DNA from: a virus
Lineage: Duplodnaviria > Heunggongvirae > Uroviricota > Caudoviricetes
Length of the DNA: 33,980 nucleotides
IMG/VR virus record: IMGVR_UViG_2869970738_000009
Direction: 5' to 3' (one strand)
Numbering within the stretch: position 1 is the first letter of the stretch; every line of letters starts with the position of its first letter. The position numbers and the translations under genes are program-made. Below the pieces are notes generated by a model. The model searched no databases. It was not told the origin of the DNA and worked only from the letters and a program-made list of their open reading frames with translations. Below, piece by piece: positions 27,216 to 33,980 of this stretch.

Positions 27216-27749
27216 ATGAACACCAAAATCAAATACGGCCTGTCGGCTGCCGTTCTGGCGCTGATTGCCGCAGGTGCGCCTGCGCCTGAAATCCTCGACC
27301 AGTTTCTGGATGAAAAGGAAGGTAACCACACCACGGCATACCGTGATGGCGCGGGTATCTGGACCATCTGCCGCGGTGCCATCCTGGTGGATAGTAAACC
27401 TGTCGTCCCGGGCATGAAGTTGTCGAAGGAAAAATGCGACCAGGTCAACGCCATTGAGCGTGATAAGGCGCTGGCATGGGTGGAGCGCAATATTAAAGTG
27501 CCGCTGACCGAACCCCAGAAAGCGGGTATCGCGTCATTTTGTCCCTATAACATTGGCCCCGGTAAGTGTTTCCCGTCGACGTTTTACAGACGGATTAATG
27601 CTGGTGACCGCAGGGGAGCATGCGAAGCGATTCGCTGGTGGATTAAGGACGGTGGCAGAGACTGCCGTATCCGCTCAAATAATTGCTACGGTCAGGTATC
27701 CCGGCGAGACCAGGAAAGTGCGCTGGCGTGCTGGGACATCGACAGATAA
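27216..27749 (+). CDS. R: SAR endolysin (T4-type lysozyme fold with N-terminal signal-anchor-release domain)
   Basis: Gly/Ala-rich weakly hydrophobic N-terminus followed by the catalytic E-D-T triad region (EKEGNHTTAYRDGAGIWTICRG). Confidence 0.8.
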   Translation: MNTKIKYGLSAAVLALIAAGAPAPEILDQFLDEKEGNHTTAYRDGAGIWTICRGAILVDSKPVVPGMKLSKEKCDQVNAIERDKALAWVERNIKVPLTEPQKAGIASFCPYNIGPGKCFPSTFYRRINAGDRRGACEAIRWWIKDGGRDCRIRSNNCYGQVSRRDQESALACWDIDR

Positions 27750-27904
27750 GCAGAATATTTTGCTGAAAAATAAGGCATGAGCACGCGGACGGATAACACG
27801 AAATCCTGCGAACTGGCGAAACGTAAGTGAATAAAAGTAAAAACCCCGTTTGTTGGCACCAAGCGGGGTTTTGTGTTTCTGACCTTGAGTAAGGCAAGGG
27901 AGAA

Positions 27905-28088
27905 CATGGCGAAGTATAAACGAATTCTGTTGAGGTTGACCATGAAAAACGGCCTTGAACTGAAAGCGCCTGTAACTGATGACATCAGCAGAGCACTGGC
28001 TTTTGCCATTAAGTGGATGGCGGTCGGTGTTGCTGTGTCCCCGATGCTGTATGGGCTGGCAAAACTGGTCATTGCGTTGAAATCGTGA
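27905..28088 (+). CDS. hypothetical 60-aa protein with C-terminal transmembrane helix
   Basis: ATG 27905 with GGGAGA upstream; C-terminal [22 protein letters not shown]. Confidence 0.35.
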
Positions 28089-28102
28089 AGGGAGGATTAA
28101 GC

Positions 28103-28234
28103 ATGTCAGACAAACTCATAACGCTGGCGAAGATCCTCTGTGTAATTGTCGGCATTTCATTTTCACTAATGCTGGTTGCTCTTTTTCTTTCCATGGCCTG
28201 GATGATGTTGTCTTCGTCGGGGCTGCTGGGGTGA
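28103..28234 (+). CDS. hypothetical 43-aa membrane peptide
   Basis: Strong GGGAGG Shine-Dalgarno; sequence almost entirely hydrophobic; stop overlaps the Rz start (GTGA). Confidence 0.4.
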
Positions 28235-28704
28235 ACATAAACCGAATGCTTTCCGCGTTTACCGTTATTCTGCTGGTGGTCTGTGGTGCGCTGTGGCTGG
28301 CAACAGACCATTACCGTGATAACGCCATCACCTACAAAGCGCAGCGCGATAAAAAAGCCAGAGAGCTGGAGCTGGCAAACGCAACCATTACTGACATGCA
28401 GCAGCGCCAGCGTGATGTTGCTGCGCTTGATGCCAGATACTCAAGGGAATTAGCCGATGCGAGAGCTGAAAATGAAACTCTGCGTGCTGATGTTGCCGCT
28501 GGTCGTAAGCGCCTGCGGATCAACGCCACCTGCTCCGGTACCGTGCGTGAAGCCACCGGCACCTCCGGAATGGATAATGCAACCGGCCCCCGACTGGCAG
28601 ACACCGCTGAACGGGATTATTTCACCCTCAGAGAGCGGTTGATGACAATGCAGAAGCAACTGGAAGGGGCGCAGGAATATATCCGCACTCAGTGTATTAA
28701 CTAG
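28231..28704 (+). CDS. Rz: Rz i-spanin
   Basis: N-terminal transmembrane helix then coiled-coil periplasmic domain; contains the embedded +1-frame Rz1. Confidence 0.7.
28472..28642 (+). CDS. Rz1: Rz1 o-spanin lipoprotein, embedded in Rz
   Basis: [24 protein letters not shown]...; lipobox VSAC, Pro-rich mature region. Confidence 0.65.
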
Positions 28705-28727
28705 TATTTTTGTTATCCGGAGAATGC

Positions 28728-28952
28728 ATGAAGAAATTACTGGTAACCGTAAAGCCTTTTCAGGGAACAATTCCGTTCCGTATTTTGCAGCGTGGTCGTG
28801 TTCTTGTTGAAGGTTCGTTCAGTGGTAAATGTACGCAATTACACTCCCGGACCTTTCAGGTGAATGCCACGAATGAAGAGCTAACCGTTGAGTGTACGAT
28901 GAATGCCGCTAAATGCCGCATGGTATCCGCTGCATTACAGCCAGTGTGTTGA
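28728..28952 (+). CDS. hypothetical 74-aa protein in the bor position
   Basis: GGAGA Shine-Dalgarno; five Cys; no signal peptide recognised. Confidence 0.4.
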   Translation: MKKLLVTVKPFQGTIPFRILQRGRVLVEGSFSGKCTQLHSRTFQVNATNEELTVECTMNAAKCRMVSAALQPVC

Positions 28953-29296
28953 GCGACCTTATTAACCATGCGCGGTATTGTCGCCGTATCCCCGCATTAA
29001 CAGAGACCGCAGCCCGACCGGGAGACTCCTCTGCGCGAGTGTGCGGGGATAATCAAAAACGATACACACCGGGGTTTACCGCGTTAACGGAGCGCGGCGT
29101 TGTCCCCTCATGGTCGCTGGTCCGGTGCGATGGTGGAAGAAACCGGACGATGTGTTACCTCGCAAGCTCTGTTATGTCATGTGTCTGATTTGTGATTTAA
29201 GTCGGATAATTGTCGTTGCCATTAAGCAGAGGATTGATGACCGACAGGGTGGCATTGTTAGAATAAGACTTATTCTTATCTGTGCCGGGAATGAAA

Positions 29297-29623
29297 ATGA
29301 AAAGAAACCTTCCGTTAATTATTTTGTTGTCTTCTCTGGTTATGGGCTGTACGCAACATAAAACAGATATGCCCCGACAGTTGGTTAAGGCATTACCACA
29401 ATATCCGGCCTATGCAGCGGCAAATTATATAAAGGGACGGGTTGATGTGAGGTTTGATATTGGTGCTGATGGTACTGTCACCCGAATTGAGTTTATTCGT
29501 TCAGAGCCGCACCATCTGTTTGATGAGCAGGTTGTAAAGGCGATGGCAAAATGGCGATTTGAGAAGGACAGGCCGTGTAAAGGCGTGAAGAAAACGTTTA
29601 TCTTTAGTCCTTCCGCACCCTGA
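29297..29623 (+). CDS. lipoprotein with TonB C-terminal-like domain
   Basis: Signal peptide with lipobox LVMGC; mature part ALPQYPAYAAANYIKGRVDVRFDIGADGTVTRIEFIRSEP...FDEQVVKAMAKWRF resembles the TonB_C fold. Confidence 0.6.
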   Translation: MKRNLPLIILLSSLVMGCTQHKTDMPRQLVKALPQYPAYAAANYIKGRVDVRFDIGADGTVTRIEFIRSEPHHLFDEQVVKAMAKWRFEKDRPCKGVKKTFIFSPSAP

Positions 29624-29754: not shown

Positions 29755-29955
29755 TCATTTCTCGTTATTTGTCATGCTGGCCGGGCGCAGATGCGTTGCA
29801 TCTGTTGCCAGCCTTCTCCTGCAGGCTTCAATAACCCACGCTGAAAAGTTTCCTGAACCTTTCAGATCAAGAGCGATGTTAATTTGTTCAATCATCTGGT
29901 TTGGAAATCGGATGTTGCGGGTTGTTGTTCTGCGGGTTCTGTTCTTTGATGACAT
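29755..29955 (-). CDS. ribbon-helix-helix (Arc/CopG-like) DNA-binding protein
   Basis: RNIRFPNQMIEQINIALDLKGSGNFSAWVIEACRRRL has the beta-strand plus two-helix RHH pattern; start is 85 bp from the IS66 terminus. Confidence 0.5.
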   Translation of the reverse strand: MSSKNRTRRTTTRNIRFPNQMIEQINIALDLKGSGNFSAWVIEACRRRLATDATHLRPASMTNNEK

Positions 29956-30064
29956 AATGTTTCCCCATATTCAGTGTTGCTGATTTGTATTATCTGAAGT
30001 TGCTTTTACGTTAATTTGATGCAGATCAATCAATACGATAGTAAGGCAGTATGACTTTCCGTGA

Positions 30065-31545
30065 GACAGATGCTGGCCAACGTGGGATATTTAACGCGGG
30101 TTAACATCGTTGTCAGAGCCGCATGGGTGAGCTGTTGCTACACCCCGGTATTTCCACCACGGAGGCCAGCATGAACAACAATAACACATTGTACGTCGGG
30201 TTAGATGTTCACAAAGAATCGATTACTGTCGCTTATGCTATCAATTCAGAACCTGTTGAACTGATGGGTAAAATTGGCACATCACCTACTGATATTCAGA
30301 ATCTTTGTAAACGTCTCAGGTCAAAGTCATCGCAGGTCAGTATCGTTTATGAAGCGGGGCCCTGTGGTTATGGACTTTATCGTCGGCTGGTGAAATCCGG
30401 TTTTGACTGCATGGTCTGCGCCCCCTCACTTATCCCGAAAAAACCGGGGGAGCGGGTTAAAACCGATCGCCGTGATGCCATCAGACTTGTGCGTTCACTG
30501 CGTGCAGGAGATCTTTCTGCTGTCTACGTACCCGGTATTGAAGATGAGGCATTCCGGGATTTGGCCCGGGCATGGGCATCTGCCCGCGATGATTTACGGC
30601 ATGCAAGGCAACGTCTGAAATCGTTTCTTCTGGTTCATGGGGTCCATTATGTCGGGCGAGCAGATTGGGGCCCTGCACACCGACGCTGGCTCAGCAAATA
30701 CTCATTCGAAAGTCCCTGGCGACAATTAGCTTTTGACGAACACCGTCGTACAATAGAAGACCGGCAGGCACAATGTGAACGGCTGGAATCCGCCCTGAAG
30801 GAGGCCGTTACCGAATGGAGGCTGTATCCGGTAGTAGAGGCGCTGCAAGCCATGCGAGGGATTCAGTTTATTACTGCGGTTGGATTAATTTCTGAACTGG
30901 GTGATCTGACCCGTTTTGAACATCCACGACAACTGATGTCATGGTTTGGTATCACGCCATCAGAATATTCATCGGGTGGAAGCAGACATCAGGGCAGCAT
31001 TACCAAAGCCGGAAACAGCTATGCCAGAAAGCTATTGGTCGAGGCAGCGTGGAGTTACCGTCATCCGGCACGCATCAGTCCGGCAATACAAAAAAGGCAG
31101 GAAAATTTACCCCGCCCCGTCATTGACAGAGCATGGGATGCTCAACTCAGGCTTTGTAAGAGGTATCGAAAACTTCAGGCCAAAGGAAAGAATGTCAATA
31201 TTACAATTGTTGCTGTTGCACGTGAGCTGGCGGGTTTTATCTGGGATATGGGCCGAATAGCAATGTCTGTCGCACAACAACCACAATGTCACAAATAAAA
31301 AATGAGAATAACCAGTTCCCTGAAGGCGACGTAGCCCGGTACAAGAGTAACCCACGTTAGCGCTTGGCGACGGCGGAACAAAGCTGATTCGCGACGTAAG
31401 AAAGTGGCAGGCTCATATGACGGACCTCTGTAATGCGGTATCCAACCCGCGAATATCAGCGTGATTCACCGTCGGATTTACTGCTACGTCGCCCTCAGGG
31501 AATTAAACCTAAAAAGAAAATCGTCAAAATTAGAGATTCCGGTTT
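30065..31545 (+). mobile_element. IS110-family element nested in the IS66 terminus (boundaries approximate)
   Basis: About 1.5 kb lies between the IS66 IR and the tnpC stop, where tens of bp are expected; contains one DEDD-type transposase gene; flanked by inverted 14-mers TATGACTTTCCGTG (30050-30063) and CACGGAAAGTCATA (31547-31560). Confidence 0.4.
30171..31298 (+). CDS. IS110-family (DEDD) transposase
   Basis: N-terminus MNNNNTLYVGLDVHKESITVAY typical of IS110/IS1111-family transposases; GGAGG Shine-Dalgarno. Confidence 0.85.
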   Translation: MNNNNTLYVGLDVHKESITVAYAINSEPVELMGKIGTSPTDIQNLCKRLRSKSSQVSIVYEAGPCGYGLYRRLVKSGFDCMVCAPSLIPKKPGERVKTDRRDAIRLVRSLRAGDLSAVYVPGIEDEAFRDLARAWASARDDLRHARQRLKSFLLVHGVHYVGRADWGPAHRRWLSKYSFESPWRQLAFDEHRRTIEDRQAQCERLESALKEAVTEWRLYPVVEALQAMRGIQFITAVGLISELGDLTRFEHPRQLMSWFGITPSEYSSGGSRHQGSITKAGNSYARKLLVEAAWSYRHPARISPAIQKRQENLPRPVIDRAWDAQLRLCKRYRKLQAKGKNVNITIVAVARELAGFIWDMGRIAMSVAQQPQCHK

Positions 31546-31590
31546 GACACGGAAAGTCATATCAGCGTCAACGGAGCACCGTATTGACGC

Positions 31591-33183
31591 TTATTTATTG
31601 GTGAGTGCTACGTTCCATGGCAGGAGTTCGTCAACACGGTTGGAAGGCCATTCCGGCAGTACGCTCAGGATATAGCGCAGATACGCTTCCGGATCGATAC
31701 CGTTCAGTCGGCAGGTGCCGATCAGCCCGTACAGTAGCGCACCACGCTCTCCACCGTGATCGCTGCCGAAGAACATAAAGTTTTTCTTTCCGAGACAGAC
31801 TGCACGAAGCGCTCTTTCCGCGGCATTATTATCCGCCTCAGCCAGACCATCATCACTGAAGTTGCACAACGCAACCCAGTGCTTCCTGATATACCGGAAC
31901 GCATCTCTCAGACGGCATTTTTTCGATAACGTGTGTTCTTTCTCCTGCATCAGCTTATACAGGGAAGTCAGTAGCGGTTTACTCTGCATTTGCCTGACCG
32001 CCAGGCGTTCAGACACCGGCAACCCGCGTATTTCGTGCTCGATGGCGTACAGCTCACCGATTAGTTTCAGGGCTTCTTCCGCTGTCGCGCTTTTGGTACT
32101 GATATATACATCGTGGACTTTGCGCCGCGCATGAGCCCAGCATCCTGCTTCCGTCAACGCGCCGCCTTCTCGTTCGGCACTGAACAGCCGATCGTAACCA
32201 TTAAACGCATCTGCCTGCAGGATACCCCGGAAGGGACTAAGGTGCTGCTCCGGATGTTTACCCTGATGGTCCGGTGAGTAGGCGAACCAGACCGCCGGAG
32301 GCTCTGGCGAACCGGCATTCCTGTCATCCCGGACATACGTCCAGATATATCCTGTTTTCGCCTTCTTCCTGCCCGGTGCCAGCACTTTTACTGGTGTGTC
32401 ATCAGTGTGAACTTTGCGGCTGTTCATCACATAACGGTACAGAGCATCATTCAGCGGCGTCATTAACTGGCAGCACGCGTCAACCCAGTTGGAGAGTAAT
32501 GCACGGCTCAGTTCGACACCCTGACGGGCAAAAATTTCACTCTGACGATACAGTGGCAGGTGTTCGCAGTATTTTCCCGTTAACACGCGGGCAAGTAACC
32601 CCGGGCCCGCGATACCACGCTCTATCGGACGGGATGGTGCCGGTGCTTCAACGATGCAGTCACATTTTGTACAGGCTTTTTTTACCCGTTCTGTGCGGAT
32701 CACTTTCAGAGCGCTGCTCACCAGTTCCAGTTGTTCTGCGCTGACTTCCCCCAGATAATCCAGCTCACCGCCACACTCCGGGCAACAGCTTTCTTCTGGC
32801 TCCAGGCGATTTATTTCGCGGGGCAGATGCTCCGGTAACGGGCGACGATGACGAGACTGTCGCAACTGGCGGGGAACCTGCGGATCGTCTTCCCGCCCAC
32901 TGTAACGATCACTGTCCTGTTCGCGTTGTTTCAGCAGGGCCTCAGCCTGTTCAACTTCACGACGCAGTTTTTCAGAACGGGTACCGAACAGCATCCGGCG
33001 CAGTTTTTCTATCTGAGCCCGCAGATGTTCTATTTCCCGTTCATCTTCTTCGATCTTTTCTTCGGCGCGGGCCAGTGCAGAGCGCAGGAAGGCCTCCGTC
33101 TCTTCAACCAGACTCAGTTGCTGGTCTTTCTGACGGAGCTGGCATTCCAGTTCTGCAATGCGAATGAGGTATTTTTGATTCAT
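31591..33183 (-). CDS. tnpC: IS66-family transposase TnpC
   Basis: 530-aa protein with N-terminal coiled coil, CxxC zinc motif (CPECGGEL) and DDE core. Confidence 0.85.
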   Translation of the reverse strand: MNQKYLIRIAELECQLRQKDQQLSLVEETEAFLRSALARAEEKIEEDEREIEHLRAQIEKLRRMLFGTRSEKLRREVEQAEALLKQREQDSDRYSGREDDPQVPRQLRQSRHRRPLPEHLPREINRLEPEESCCPECGGELDYLGEVSAEQLELVSSALKVIRTERVKKACTKCDCIVEAPAPSRPIERGIAGPGLLARVLTGKYCEHLPLYRQSEIFARQGVELSRALLSNWVDACCQLMTPLNDALYRYVMNSRKVHTDDTPVKVLAPGRKKAKTGYIWTYVRDDRNAGSPEPPAVWFAYSPDHQGKHPEQHLSPFRGILQADAFNGYDRLFSAEREGGALTEAGCWAHARRKVHDVYISTKSATAEEALKLIGELYAIEHEIRGLPVSERLAVRQMQSKPLLTSLYKLMQEKEHTLSKKCRLRDAFRYIRKHWVALCNFSDDGLAEADNNAAERALRAVCLGKKNFMFFGSDHGGERGALLYGLIGTCRLNGIDPEAYLRYILSVLPEWPSNRVDELLPWNVALTNK

Positions 33184-33213
33184 GGCCGTTTTTATAATCC
33201 GGCCATGACATTT

Positions 33214-33564
33214 TTACAACATTGTCAGTGCGTTAAGGCGGGATGTTTTTGGCTGACGCCAGTCCAGCTTATCGAGGAGCATTGCCAGTTGCTAGCGGGT
33301 AATGGATACCTTGCCGTCACGCACAGCAGGCCAGATAAACTGGCCTTCCTCCAGGCGTCTGGTGAACAGGCACAGACCATCAGCATCAGCCCACAGGATT
33401 TTAATCATGTCACCCCGTCGGCCACGGAAGATGAACAGGTGACCGGAGAAGGGATTATCATTCAGCACATGCTGTACCTGTTCACCCAGCCCGTTGAAAG
33501 ACTTACGCATATCGGTTATCCCAGCAACGAGCCAGATGCGGGTGCCTGACGGGAGTGAGATCAT
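33214..33564 (-). pseudogene. tnpB: IS66-family TnpB (Orf2) with in-frame amber codon at 33292-33294
   Basis: ORF stops at ...GKVSITR*; the same frame continues QLAMLLDKLDWRQPKTSRLNALTML* to a second stop at 33214-33216. Confidence 0.55.
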
Positions 33565-33980
33565 CGTCCCCTCCCGGTCAGTTCACGGATCAACACTGTG
33601 AGCAGCTCTGGTGAAGGATTTTCCAGCGTCATGTTACCGTGACGGAACTCCACCTTGCAGGAGCTGGCACTAACTGTAGTCTGAGTAGATAAAGACGGAG
33701 TAAGAGCAGCCACCGGTTCTTTCGGCTCATCCGGCGTTATCTCCACAGGTAATAATTCAACGCCAGTGTCAGAAGAGGTTGTTACCGGAAGACGCCGCGA
33801 TATGCGCCCTTCGTTCTGCCAGAGCCTGAGCCATTTGAACAGCAGGTTATCATTGATATCGTGTTCCCGGGCAATACGGGCAACAGAGGCTCCTGGTTGT
33901 GAAGCCAGTTTAACCATTTGAAGTTTAAACTCATTTGAAAATGATCTGCGGGGTTCTGCAGATAATGCTTTCTGTTCCAT
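33561..33980 (-). CDS. tnpA: IS66-family TnpA (Orf1)
   Basis: 139-aa HTH protein; 4-bp overlap with tnpB; ATG is at 33978-33980. Confidence 0.75.
   Translation of the reverse strand: MEQKALSAEPRRSFSNEFKLQMVKLASQPGASVARIAREHDINDNLLFKWLRLWQNEGRISRRLPVTTSSDTGVELLPVEITPDEPKEPVAALTPSLSTQTTVSASSCKVEFRHGNMTLENPSPELLTVLIRELTGRGR

What the first reader, a model, noticed from the sequence alone, without database searches (positions are those of the whole stretch)
30041..31590. IS110-family element nested inside the IS66 terminus, flanked by inverted 14-mers
About 1.55 kb separates the IS66 terminal repeat from the tnpC stop codon, and the space holds a complete DEDD transposase gene. The insertion is bounded by TATGACTTTCCGTG (30050-30063) and its inverse CACGGAAAGTCATA (31547-31560), as if the element had inserted into the loop of a hairpin in the IS66 end. 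IS110-family elements are known to target palindromic sites; an IS66 terminus as target would be worth documenting.
Basis: partly seen in the sequence, partly recalled or inferred. Interest (0 to 1): 0.5.

Follow-up and report, generated by a model that had tools for sequence, protein, structure and literature searches.

The report
ISSso6 inserted in an IS66 end
A known small mobile element (ISSso6) sits five bases inside the tip of a second mobile element (an IS66-family IS), probably steered there by its own guide RNA; this is a new target for a known mechanism, not a new one.

Summary
A complete 1,520-bp IS110/IS1111-type element (30046-31565) lies between the outermost five bases of an IS66-family inverted repeat (GTAAG, 30041-30045) and the rest of that repeat (from 31566). 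Its transposase is 100% identical to ISSso6 of Shigella sonnei.

The hairpin reading is wrong. The inverted 14-mers (30050-30063 and 31548-31561, the second off by one) are ISSso6's own subterminal repeats. About 50 Burkholderiaceae relatives keep them, with compensatory changes, and none adjoins an IS66.

An intact copy of the same IS66 variant (99.7%) lacks the 1.5 kb. An empty non-IS66 site shows a precise insertion with no duplication.

At least 15 distinct ISSso6 contexts share 5'-(G)TAAG|CG-3' in a single orientation. About ten are right or left ends of different IS66-family members.

The 267-nt region after the transposase gene holds a conserved ~190-nt RNA fold. Two of its segments covary with the flanking target across relatives (0 of 20,000 permutations). 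In ISSso6 they spell CGTAAG and the complement of AAGCGCTAACG, so the IS66 tip is a near-cognate target.

This parallels IS4321/IS5075 in Tn21 ends and ISEc21 in IS3 genes. It is a new member of a known kind and of modest interest.

The parts
30041..30045 (-). Outer tip (GTAAG) of the IS66-family right inverted repeat, cut off from the rest of the repeat by the insertion.
   Evidence: Prophage homology ends at 30040. Intact ISEc23 and an intact copy of the same IS66 variant read flank|GTAAGCGTCAACGG.
30046..31565 (+). ISSso6, a 1,520-bp IS110-family element of the IS1111 group. An AG present at both junctions leaves the limits uncertain by up to 2 nt.
   Evidence: Copies at 99-100% identity are annotated 'IS110-like element ISSso6 family'. 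The empty-site reconstruction matched 100% over 400 nt in a single piece.
30050..30063 (+). Left subterminal inverted repeat of ISSso6 (TATGACTTTCCGTG).
30171..31298 (+). ISSso6 DEDD transposase gene (375 aa).
   Evidence: PF01548 and PF02371. NF033542. 375/375 identical to WP_001063816.1 on S. sonnei Ss046 pSS_046.
31314..31504 (+). Predicted guide (seek/bridge) RNA scaffold of 191 nt, closed by a 20-bp stem (31316-31335 with 31483-31502).
   Evidence: The stem was found. The RNAalifold consensus over 43 relatives shows covarying pairs.
31355..31365 (+). Guide 1 (CGTTAGCGCTT), complementary to the top strand of AAG+CGCTAACG, that is, the core plus the right half of the target.
   Evidence: Same alignment position in all relatives, and it covaries with the right flank.
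31395..31400 (+). Guide 2 (CGTAAG), same sense as the left half of the target, so it would pair with the bottom strand.
31453..31459 (+). Putative donor guide (ATATCAG), identical to the right end of the IS plus the core.
   Evidence: Conserved position in nearly all relatives. It is invariant, so covariation cannot be tested.
31479..31484 (+). Putative donor guide (TACTGC), the reverse complement of the left end GCAGTA.
   Evidence: Its last base lies in the closing stem.
31544..31549 (+). TTGACA in the right end. In a circle junction it would lie 17 nt upstream of CAGTAT from the left end, forming an inferred junction promoter.
   Evidence: TTGACA is conserved in the relatives' right ends.
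31548..31561 (+). Right subterminal inverted repeat of ISSso6 (CACGGAAAGTCATA).
31566..33980 (-). The rest of the IS66-family element: inner part of the right inverted repeat (31566-31590), tnpC (31591-33183), tnpB with a premature stop at codon 91 (33292-33564), and tnpA (33561-33980, cut by the window end).

Best explanation
The 1.5-kb segment is a copy of ISSso6, a catalogued IS110-family insertion sequence of the IS1111 group. It integrated by site- and orientation-specific recombination, without target duplication. The integration point is between bases 3-5 and 6 of the right terminal inverted repeat of an IS66-family element (GTA[AG]|CGTCAACGG).

The site is most likely chosen by an RNA encoded in the 267-nt non-coding region downstream of the transposase gene. 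One segment of an internal loop (CGUUAGCGCUU) pairs with the top strand of AAG-CGCTAACG. A second segment (CGUAAG) pairs with the bottom strand of the left half-site. Two further conserved segments match the IS's own right and left ends (the donor).

The tip GTAAGCGT shared by all the IS66-family ends examined here matches these guides, apart from one G:T wobble and zero or one mismatch. IS66 ends (right, and sometimes left) are therefore the commonest landing sites, along with a few look-alike chromosomal or phage sites.

Shown: identity, limits, absence of a duplication, recurrent target and orientation, conserved RNA fold, and guide/target covariation.

Inferred: that the RNA is made and bound by the transposase, that a circular intermediate with a junction promoter is used, and that the split inverted repeat disables that end of the IS66.
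For: Identity:
- The transposase is 375/375 identical to the ISSso6-family protein of S. sonnei pSS_046.
- Its first ~100 residues match the ISSso6 sequence in the supplement of PMC11187229.
- NF033542 and Pfam domains are present.

Limits and absence of duplication:
- Intact ISEc23 and an intact copy of the same IS66 variant read GTAAGCGTCAACGG uninterrupted.
- The reconstructed nhaA-upstream empty site is 100% identical over 400 nt, in one piece, in many E. coli genomes.

Recurrent target:
- Eighteen flank combinations, at least 15 distinct contexts, all carry TAAG on the left and mostly CG(T/C) on the right, always in the same orientation.
- They include right ends of several IS66 variants at 94-100% identity, left ends with tnpA, tnpB and tnpC downstream, and a right-end remnant on Shigella pINV.
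- Five contexts are non-IS66 sites.

The inverted repeats belong to the IS:
- They are conserved, with compensatory changes, in about 50 relatives, none of which adjoins an IS66.

RNA:
- The consensus fold has a ~22-bp closing stem and two internal loops.
- The guide positions sit at fixed offsets from the right end.
- Permutation test over 23 guide types: guide 1 scored 4.39 of 7 against 2.06 ± 0.24; guide 2 scored 3.17 of 6 against 1.77 ± 0.20; 0 of 20,000 shuffles reached the observed values.
- The top-strand match lies 5' of the bottom-strand match, as reported for IS1111 seekRNAs (PMC11187229).
- The nhaA site matches guide 1 at 11 of 11 positions. IS66 right ends match at 9-10 of 11 plus one G:T wobble.
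Against: - There is no experimental evidence here that the RNA exists or is required.
- Rfam has no matching family.
- The single-sequence fold is no more stable than shuffled sequence, z = -0.15. The structure therefore rests on comparative data only.
- The two donor guides are invariant across the clade, so they cannot be tested by covariation.
- Some insertions, such as L084/L096 (GTAAG|TGAATG), match guide 1 poorly at 5 of 11.
- The terminal extensions beyond the subterminal repeats (4-6 nt left, 2-4 nt right) do not fit the 7/3 or 6/3 rule quoted for IS1111 members.
- Identical ISSso6::IS66 composites at several loci could partly reflect spread of the composite rather than repeated targeting.
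Confidence: 0.85

Rival explanations
1. One reading: the two 14-mers are the stem of a hairpin in the IS66 end, and the IS110-type element landed in its loop.
For: The 14-mers are perfectly complementary and lie close to the junctions. Some IS110/IS1111 members are known to use palindromic targets such as REP and attC (PMC11187229).
Against: - Intact IS66 ends contain neither 14-mer.
- The 14-mers accompany ISSso6 into non-IS66 sites.
- They are conserved, with compensatory changes, in relatives that are not in an IS66.
Confidence: 0.01
2. The 1.5 kb is a native passenger segment of this particular IS66 variant, not an insertion.
For: The ISSso6::IS66 composite recurs at 99.5-99.9% identity at several loci.
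Against: - The same IS66 variant exists without it at 99.7% identity (L088).
- ISSso6 occurs alone at the nhaA, sopA and CaiF/GrlA sites and at a phage site, with an exact empty site.
Confidence: 0.01
3. There were one or a few ancestral insertions into an IS66 end, and the composite was then spread by IS66 transposition or homologous recombination. On this view the IS66 association reflects hitch-hiking more than active targeting.
For: Near-identical composites have four different left flanks (L107/window, L109, L111, L112). ISSso6 copies are about 99.9% identical to one another, so they carry no dating signal.
Against: - ISSso6 lies at the same position in IS66 members that differ by up to 6%.
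- It is found in left as well as right ends, in a diverged right-end remnant on pINV, and in non-IS66 sites sharing GTAAGCG.
- Only 5 nt of the IS66 inverted repeat remain at the outer edge of the composite, so IS66 transposase is unlikely to use that end (inference).
- The guide RNA sequence predicts this site.
Confidence: 0.08
4. The transposase protein alone reads GTAAGCG, and the downstream non-coding region is regulatory or irrelevant to targeting.
For: There is no direct RNA evidence here. Some sites match guide 1 poorly. All clade members share the AG at the crossover.
Against: - Relatives with 71-81% identical transposases use quite different flanks, and those flanks track two variable segments of the otherwise conserved non-coding region.
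- seekRNA dependence has been shown experimentally for four IS1111 members (PMC11187229).
- NCBIfam classes the protein as an RNA-guided transposase.
Confidence: 0.05

Closest known systems
[quoted passage not shown] 1 in PMC11187229)
   Same: An IS1111-type element with subterminal inverted repeats. Insertion is site- and orientation-specific, lies inside the terminal inverted repeat of another transposable element, and makes no duplication.
   Different: The host element is an IS66-family IS rather than a Tn3-family transposon, and the insertion is only 3-5 nt from the tip. In the identity matrix of PMC11187229, the ISSso6 transposase is only about 17-25% identical to most other listed family members. 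The original paper was not available to me.
ISEc21 (IS110 family), which targets a conserved stretch of IS3-family transposase genes (Siddiquee et al. 2024, PMC11187229)
   Same: An RNA-guided IS whose natural target is a motif conserved across another IS family, an 'IS in IS' arrangement.
   Different: ISEc21 has its non-coding region upstream, lacks subterminal repeats, and hits a coding motif. ISSso6 has a downstream non-coding region and subterminal repeats, and hits a terminal inverted repeat.
ISEc11, ISKpn4, ISPst6 and ISPa11 seekRNAs (IS1111 family; PMC11187229)
   Same: The non-coding region lies downstream. The segment matching the top strand is 5' of the one matching the bottom strand, and the two overlap at the crossover. 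Relatives are naturally re-targeted by changes in these segments. A circle-junction promoter is expected.
   Different: The transposase is longer (375 aa against 330-350 aa). The subterminal repeats are 14 nt, and the terminal extensions are 4-6 and 2-4 nt rather than 7 and 3. No experimental data exist for this clade.
IS621 bridge RNA
   Same: One structured RNA with two internal loops. One loop carries two guides for the target and the other carries two for the donor ends. There is a short shared core at the crossover.
   Different: IS621 is in the IS110 group, with the RNA upstream of the gene and the opposite guide order. Its core is CT, whereas here it is AG.

Membership tests
IS110 family (DEDD transposase) | N-terminal DEDD/RuvC-like domain plus the C-terminal PF02371 domain with a G--P----SG motif. 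| tested here: met
   PF01548 (E = 2.6e-11) and PF02371 (E = 8e-24). NF033542 at 274 bits against a cut-off of 140. The motif GITPSEYSSG is visible in the translation.
IS1111 group | Perfect or near-perfect subterminal inverted repeats of about 11-13 bp. | tested here: met
   A 14-nt perfect repeat at 30050-30063 and 31548-31561, conserved with compensatory changes in relatives.
IS1111 group | A long non-coding region downstream of the transposase gene. | tested here: met
   267 nt lie between the stop codon (31298) and the right end (31565). Only about 125 nt lie upstream of the gene.
IS1111 group | Asymmetric terminal extensions of 7 (or 6) bp on the left and 3 bp on the right, beyond the subterminal repeats (PMC11187229). 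| tested here: inconclusive
   With the repeat taken as 14 nt, the extensions are 4-6 nt (left) and 4-2 nt (right), depending on where the shared AG is assigned. They approach 7 on the left only if the repeat is defined as shorter.
IS1111 group | No target duplication; a single orientation at a specific site. | tested here: met
   The empty site matched 100% over 400 nt. All 18 flank combinations have the same orientation and motif.
IS1111 group | A seekRNA from the non-coding region, with the top-strand match 5' of the bottom-strand match. | tested here: met
   Met at the sequence level only. Two segments at fixed positions covary with the flanks, with 0 of 20,000 permutations reaching the observed scores. 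The order is as described. Expression and binding were not testable.
IS1111 group | A circular intermediate with abutted ends that creates a promoter. | not testable with these tools
   The sequence is compatible. TTGACA, 17 nt, then CAGTAT would form across a right-end/left-end junction.
ISSso6 (ISfinder name) | Near-identity to the reference element. | tested here: met
   100% amino-acid identity to the ISSso6-family transposase of S. sonnei Ss046 pSS_046. RefSeq annotation of copies 99.9% identical at the DNA level. ISfinder itself could not be queried.
IS66 family (host element) | tnpA, tnpB and tnpC genes; inverted repeats starting GTAAGCG; 8-bp duplication. | tested here: met
   The Pfam families HTH_Tnp_1, TnpB_IS66 and DDE_Tnp_IS66 are present, as is NF033517. 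The GTAAGCG tip is seen in intact copies, and an 8-bp duplication (cataaaat) is seen for ISEc23. No duplication is seen for the window's copy, because its far end abuts another IS.

The most novel reading that the evidence does not exclude
ISSso6 is a dedicated 'parasite of a parasite'. Its ancestors are Burkholderiaceae elements that use other targets. Its guide RNA has been naturally re-programmed to the motif shared by the ends of the IS66-family members examined here (GTAAGCG). It can therefore colonise whichever IS66 member is present, at the right or left end, spread with it on plasmids and prophages, and at the same time cripple that end of its host IS. As far as I could find, this IS66-end tropism and the four-guide RNA of this clade have not been described.
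Probability: 0.4. Interest if true: 0.45.

Novelty: new member of a known kind. Interest (0 to 1): 0.3.

Why it matters
- It adds IS66-family termini to the short list of mobile-element ends and genes that IS110/IS1111 elements use as safe landing sites. The known ones are Tn21 inverted repeats, attC, REP and IS3 transposase genes.
- It gives a sequence-level rationale, a guide RNA whose two target segments spell the IS66 tip.
- The clade offers a natural series of about 23 re-programmed guides on one conserved scaffold. That series could help define guide rules for IS1111-type recombinases.
- In practice it explains why ISSso6 is so often 'connected' to other ISs in Shigella assemblies, which hampers short-read IS mapping.
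- The mechanism and the IS itself are already known, so this is not a new kind of system.

Tried and rejected
- Rfam scan of 29900-31700 at E ≤ 1: no family.
- Single-sequence folding of the non-coding region: not more stable than shuffles, z = -0.15. I therefore relied on the alignment of relatives.
- Search for the same prophage::IS66 junction without ISSso6: none in E. coli complete genomes. The best partial hits were a different ISEc23 insertion about 500 bp away (L086) and chance extensions into AT-rich flanks (L087).
- Test of whether the Burkholderiaceae relatives also sit in IS66 ends: they do not. Only L044 has an unrelated IS66 fragment.
- Literature searches for ISSso6, IS1111+IS66, bridge RNA+IS66 and GTAAGCG found no description of this target.
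- Partridge & Hall 2003 (PMC219399) is not held in the library.
- I considered whether GTAAG belongs to the IS rather than to the target. I rejected this because of the empty site and the intact IS66 ends.
- I considered whether the first base of the IS (G/T/A in relatives) belongs to the target. For ISSso6 the junction arithmetic excludes it.

Full report
**What is in the window**

Positions 29755-29955 (minus strand) encode a YlcI/DUF3950 protein of a lambdoid prophage. Homology to such prophages in E. coli ends at 30040.

From 31591 to the window end, the minus strand carries the three genes of an IS66-family element. These are tnpC (31591-33183), tnpB (33292-33564) and tnpA (33561-33980, cut by the window end).

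Between the prophage and the IS66 genes lies a 375-aa DEDD transposase gene (30171-31298, plus strand). It has PF01548 and PF02371 and matches NCBIfam 'IS110 family RNA-guided transposase'.

**Exact insertion point**

An intact ISEc23 (L001) ends cataaaat|GTAAGCGTCAACGGAGCACCGTATTGACGCTTATTTATTGG, with an 8-bp duplication at the other end.

An intact copy of the same IS66 variant as in the window (99.7% identity over 605 nt; L088, E. coli FDAARGOS_943) reads ...ctgttg|GTAAGCGTCAACGG.

In the window, the left junction is cgata GTAAG|GCAGTATGAC and the right junction is GTCATATCAG|CGTCAACGG.

The insert is therefore 1,520 bp (30046-31565). It lies 3-5 nt inside the IS66 right inverted repeat, and an AG shared by both junctions cannot be assigned to either side. 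The remainder of the repeat still abuts the tnpC stop codon.

It is not met. Intact copies lack the segment.

**Identity of the insert**

Its transposase is 375/375 identical to the 'IS110-like element ISSso6 family transposase' of Shigella sonnei Ss046 plasmid pSS_046. Its N-terminus equals the ISSso6 sequence in the supplement of Siddiquee et al. 2024. Copies at 99.9% DNA identity occur in E. coli and Shigella chromosomes and plasmids.

The same prophage::IS66::ISSso6 arrangement is present in an IMG/VR contig (L107, 99.4% over 6,980 nt).

**The 14-mers belong to ISSso6, not to IS66**

- ISSso6 copies outside IS66 carry the same 14-mers. These sites are nhaA-upstream, a sopA pseudogene, a site next to a CaiF/GrlA gene, and a phage gene.
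- For the nhaA site, joining the two flanks gives a sequence that is 100% identical over 400 nt, in one piece, to many E. coli genomes. This proves a precise 1,520-bp insertion with no duplication. It also shows that GTAAG is target sequence, not IS sequence.
- About 50 relatives encoding 71-81% identical transposases, all in Burkholderiaceae, have the same subterminal repeats. Both arms change together, for example TATGACTCCCCGTG/CACGGGGAGTCATA and TATGACTTTGCGTG/CACGCAAAGTCATA.
- None of these relatives adjoins an IS66.

The subterminal repeats and the downstream non-coding region are the hallmarks of the IS1111 group (PMC11187229).

**Is the IS66 tip a real target?**

I collected 18 flank combinations, at least 15 distinct contexts, from E. 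coli genomes, PLSDB plasmids, metagenomes and IMG/VR. All carry TAAG (nearly always GTAAG) on the left and mostly CG(T/C) on the right. In every case the ISSso6 left end faces the outer side.

| Class of site | Examples |
|---|---|
| IS66 right ends of variants 94-100% identical to the window's (CGTCAACGGAGCACC; CGTTAACGGAGTGCC) | window/L107, L085/L099, L102, L109, L111, L112 |
| IS66 left ends, followed by tnpA/tnpB (and tnpC in L093) (CGTAAAGCCAATGCC; CGTAAAGCCTGTGTC) | L093; L097/L098/L103 (a decayed ISSso6-like remnant) |
| Diverged IS66 right-end remnant near virF/ospE2 on Shigella invasion plasmids (CGTTAACCGAATGCC) | L089-L092, L094, L095, L100 |
| Non-IS66 sites | L082, L083, L084/L096, L101, L104/L106 |

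About ten contexts are IS66-family ends. The association is therefore recurrent targeting and not a single accident.

Spread of an ISSso6::IS66 composite may add to the count. Near-identical composites occur at four different left flanks.

**Mechanism**

The 267-nt region after the transposase gene is highly conserved across the clade, except for two short variable segments.

RNAalifold on 43 distinct sequences gave the following consensus:
- a closing stem of about 22 bp (window 31316-31335 with 31483-31502, with covarying pairs);
- an internal loop bounded by two conserved helices, which holds the two variable segments;
- a second region holding two invariant segments.

The 5' variable segment is complementary to the top strand of the core plus the right flank. 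The 3' variable segment has the same sense as the left flank plus the core. This is the order reported for IS1111 seekRNAs.

Across 23 guide types, the scores were as follows:

| Segment | Observed Watson-Crick matches | Flanks permuted among elements | Shuffles reaching the observed value |
|---|---|---|---|
| 5' (guide 1) | 4.39 of 7 | 2.06 ± 0.24 | 0 of 20,000 |
| 3' (guide 2) | 3.17 of 6 | 1.77 ± 0.20 | 0 of 20,000 |

In ISSso6 the segments read CGTTAGCGCTT (31355-31365) and CGTAAG (31395-31400). The programmed site is therefore CGTAAG|CGCTAACG. The match of each kind of site to guide 1 is:

| Site | Match to guide 1 |
|---|---|
| nhaA-upstream | 11 of 11 |
| GTAAGCGTTAACGG (IS66 right-end variant, L102) | 10 of 11 plus one G:T wobble |
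| The window's GTAAGCGTCAACGG | 9 of 11 plus one G:T wobble |

The invariant segments are ATATCAG (31453-31459) and TACTGC (31479-31484). They equal the right end plus the core, and the reverse complement of the left end. By analogy with bridge RNAs they would bind the donor. Because they never vary, this assignment is inference only.

A conserved TTGACA in the right end would lie 17 nt from CAGTAT of the left end in a circle junction. That fits the junction promoters known for this family.

**Caveats**

- There is no expression or binding evidence for the RNA.
- Rfam has no matching family.
- The single-sequence fold is not unusually stable.
- The terminal extensions differ from the 7/3 rule quoted for IS1111 members.
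- One site (GTAAG|TGAATG) matches guide 1 poorly.

**Consequence for the IS66 (inference)**

Only 5 nt of its right inverted repeat remain at the outer edge, so that end is probably unusable by TnpC. This particular copy also has a premature stop at tnpB codon 91, compared with the intact 116-aa TnpB of L088. In the matching IMG/VR contig, its far end abuts another IS without a duplication.

**Comparison with what is known, and novelty**

The element and the mechanism are known kinds. ISSso6 is catalogued. IS4321/IS5075 insert in Tn21-family inverted repeats, and ISEc21 inserts in IS3 transposase genes (PMC11187229).

I found no description of IS66 termini as a target, or of this clade's guide RNA, in the searchable literature. 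One preprint notes only that ISSso6 is often 'connected' to other ISs in S. sonnei.

My verdict is a new member of a known kind.

Noticed in passing
window 33292-33294 (tnpB, minus strand): The IS66 tnpB has a premature stop at codon 91. The intact copy in L088 continues to 116 aa, with S at that codon. The host IS66 copy therefore looks defective independently of the split inverted repeat.
   Followed up: partly
L107 (IMG/VR contig sharing the window's context), about 86 nt beyond window position 33980: The IS66 left end (...CAGTTTACGCTTAC) abuts what looks like an IS3-family orfA. No 8-bp duplication matches ATACGATA on the other side, so the locus was rearranged or hit by a further IS.
   Followed up: partly
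L097, L098, L103; also hits H84-H90: A decayed ISSso6-like remnant sits next to an IS66 left end in many E. coli genomes. It keeps nt 899-1237 and 1434-1520 at about 94% identity and has lost the guide-RNA region. This suggests an old association.
   Followed up: partly
L109, L085/L099, L112, L094/L100 junctions: Several junctions vary slightly. There is an extra G after the right end in L109. The right end reads TCGG instead of TCAG in L085/L099. The IS66 tip reads ATAAG instead of GTAAG in L112. A 6-bp deletion lies at the right junction on some pINV plasmids.
   Followed up: no
L002-L081 (genome contigs): Among species-representative genomes, the closest relatives of the ISSso6 transposase (71-81% aa) are all in Paraburkholderia, Caballeronia, Cupriavidus, Mycetohabitans and Variovorax. 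This suggests transfer of the clade into Enterobacteriaceae with re-targeting.
   Followed up: partly
L057 (Paraburkholderia sp. IW21): This relative has an insertion of about 124 nt in the predicted guide RNA, between the target-binding and donor-binding parts.
   Followed up: no
window 31565-31590: The inner part of the IS66 right inverted repeat is itself a hairpin (GCGTCAA, 12 nt, TTGACGC) directly after the tnpC stop codon. ISSso6 inserts just outside it, not in its loop.
   Followed up: no
window 27216-29623: Upstream of the finding is a lambdoid prophage late/lysis region. It holds a lysozyme-like ORF (27216-27749), an Rz-like ORF (28231-28704) and a small lipoprotein-like ORF (29282-29623). 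I inferred this from the ORF translations and from the annotation of a similar prophage (L086). I did not test it further.
   Followed up: no
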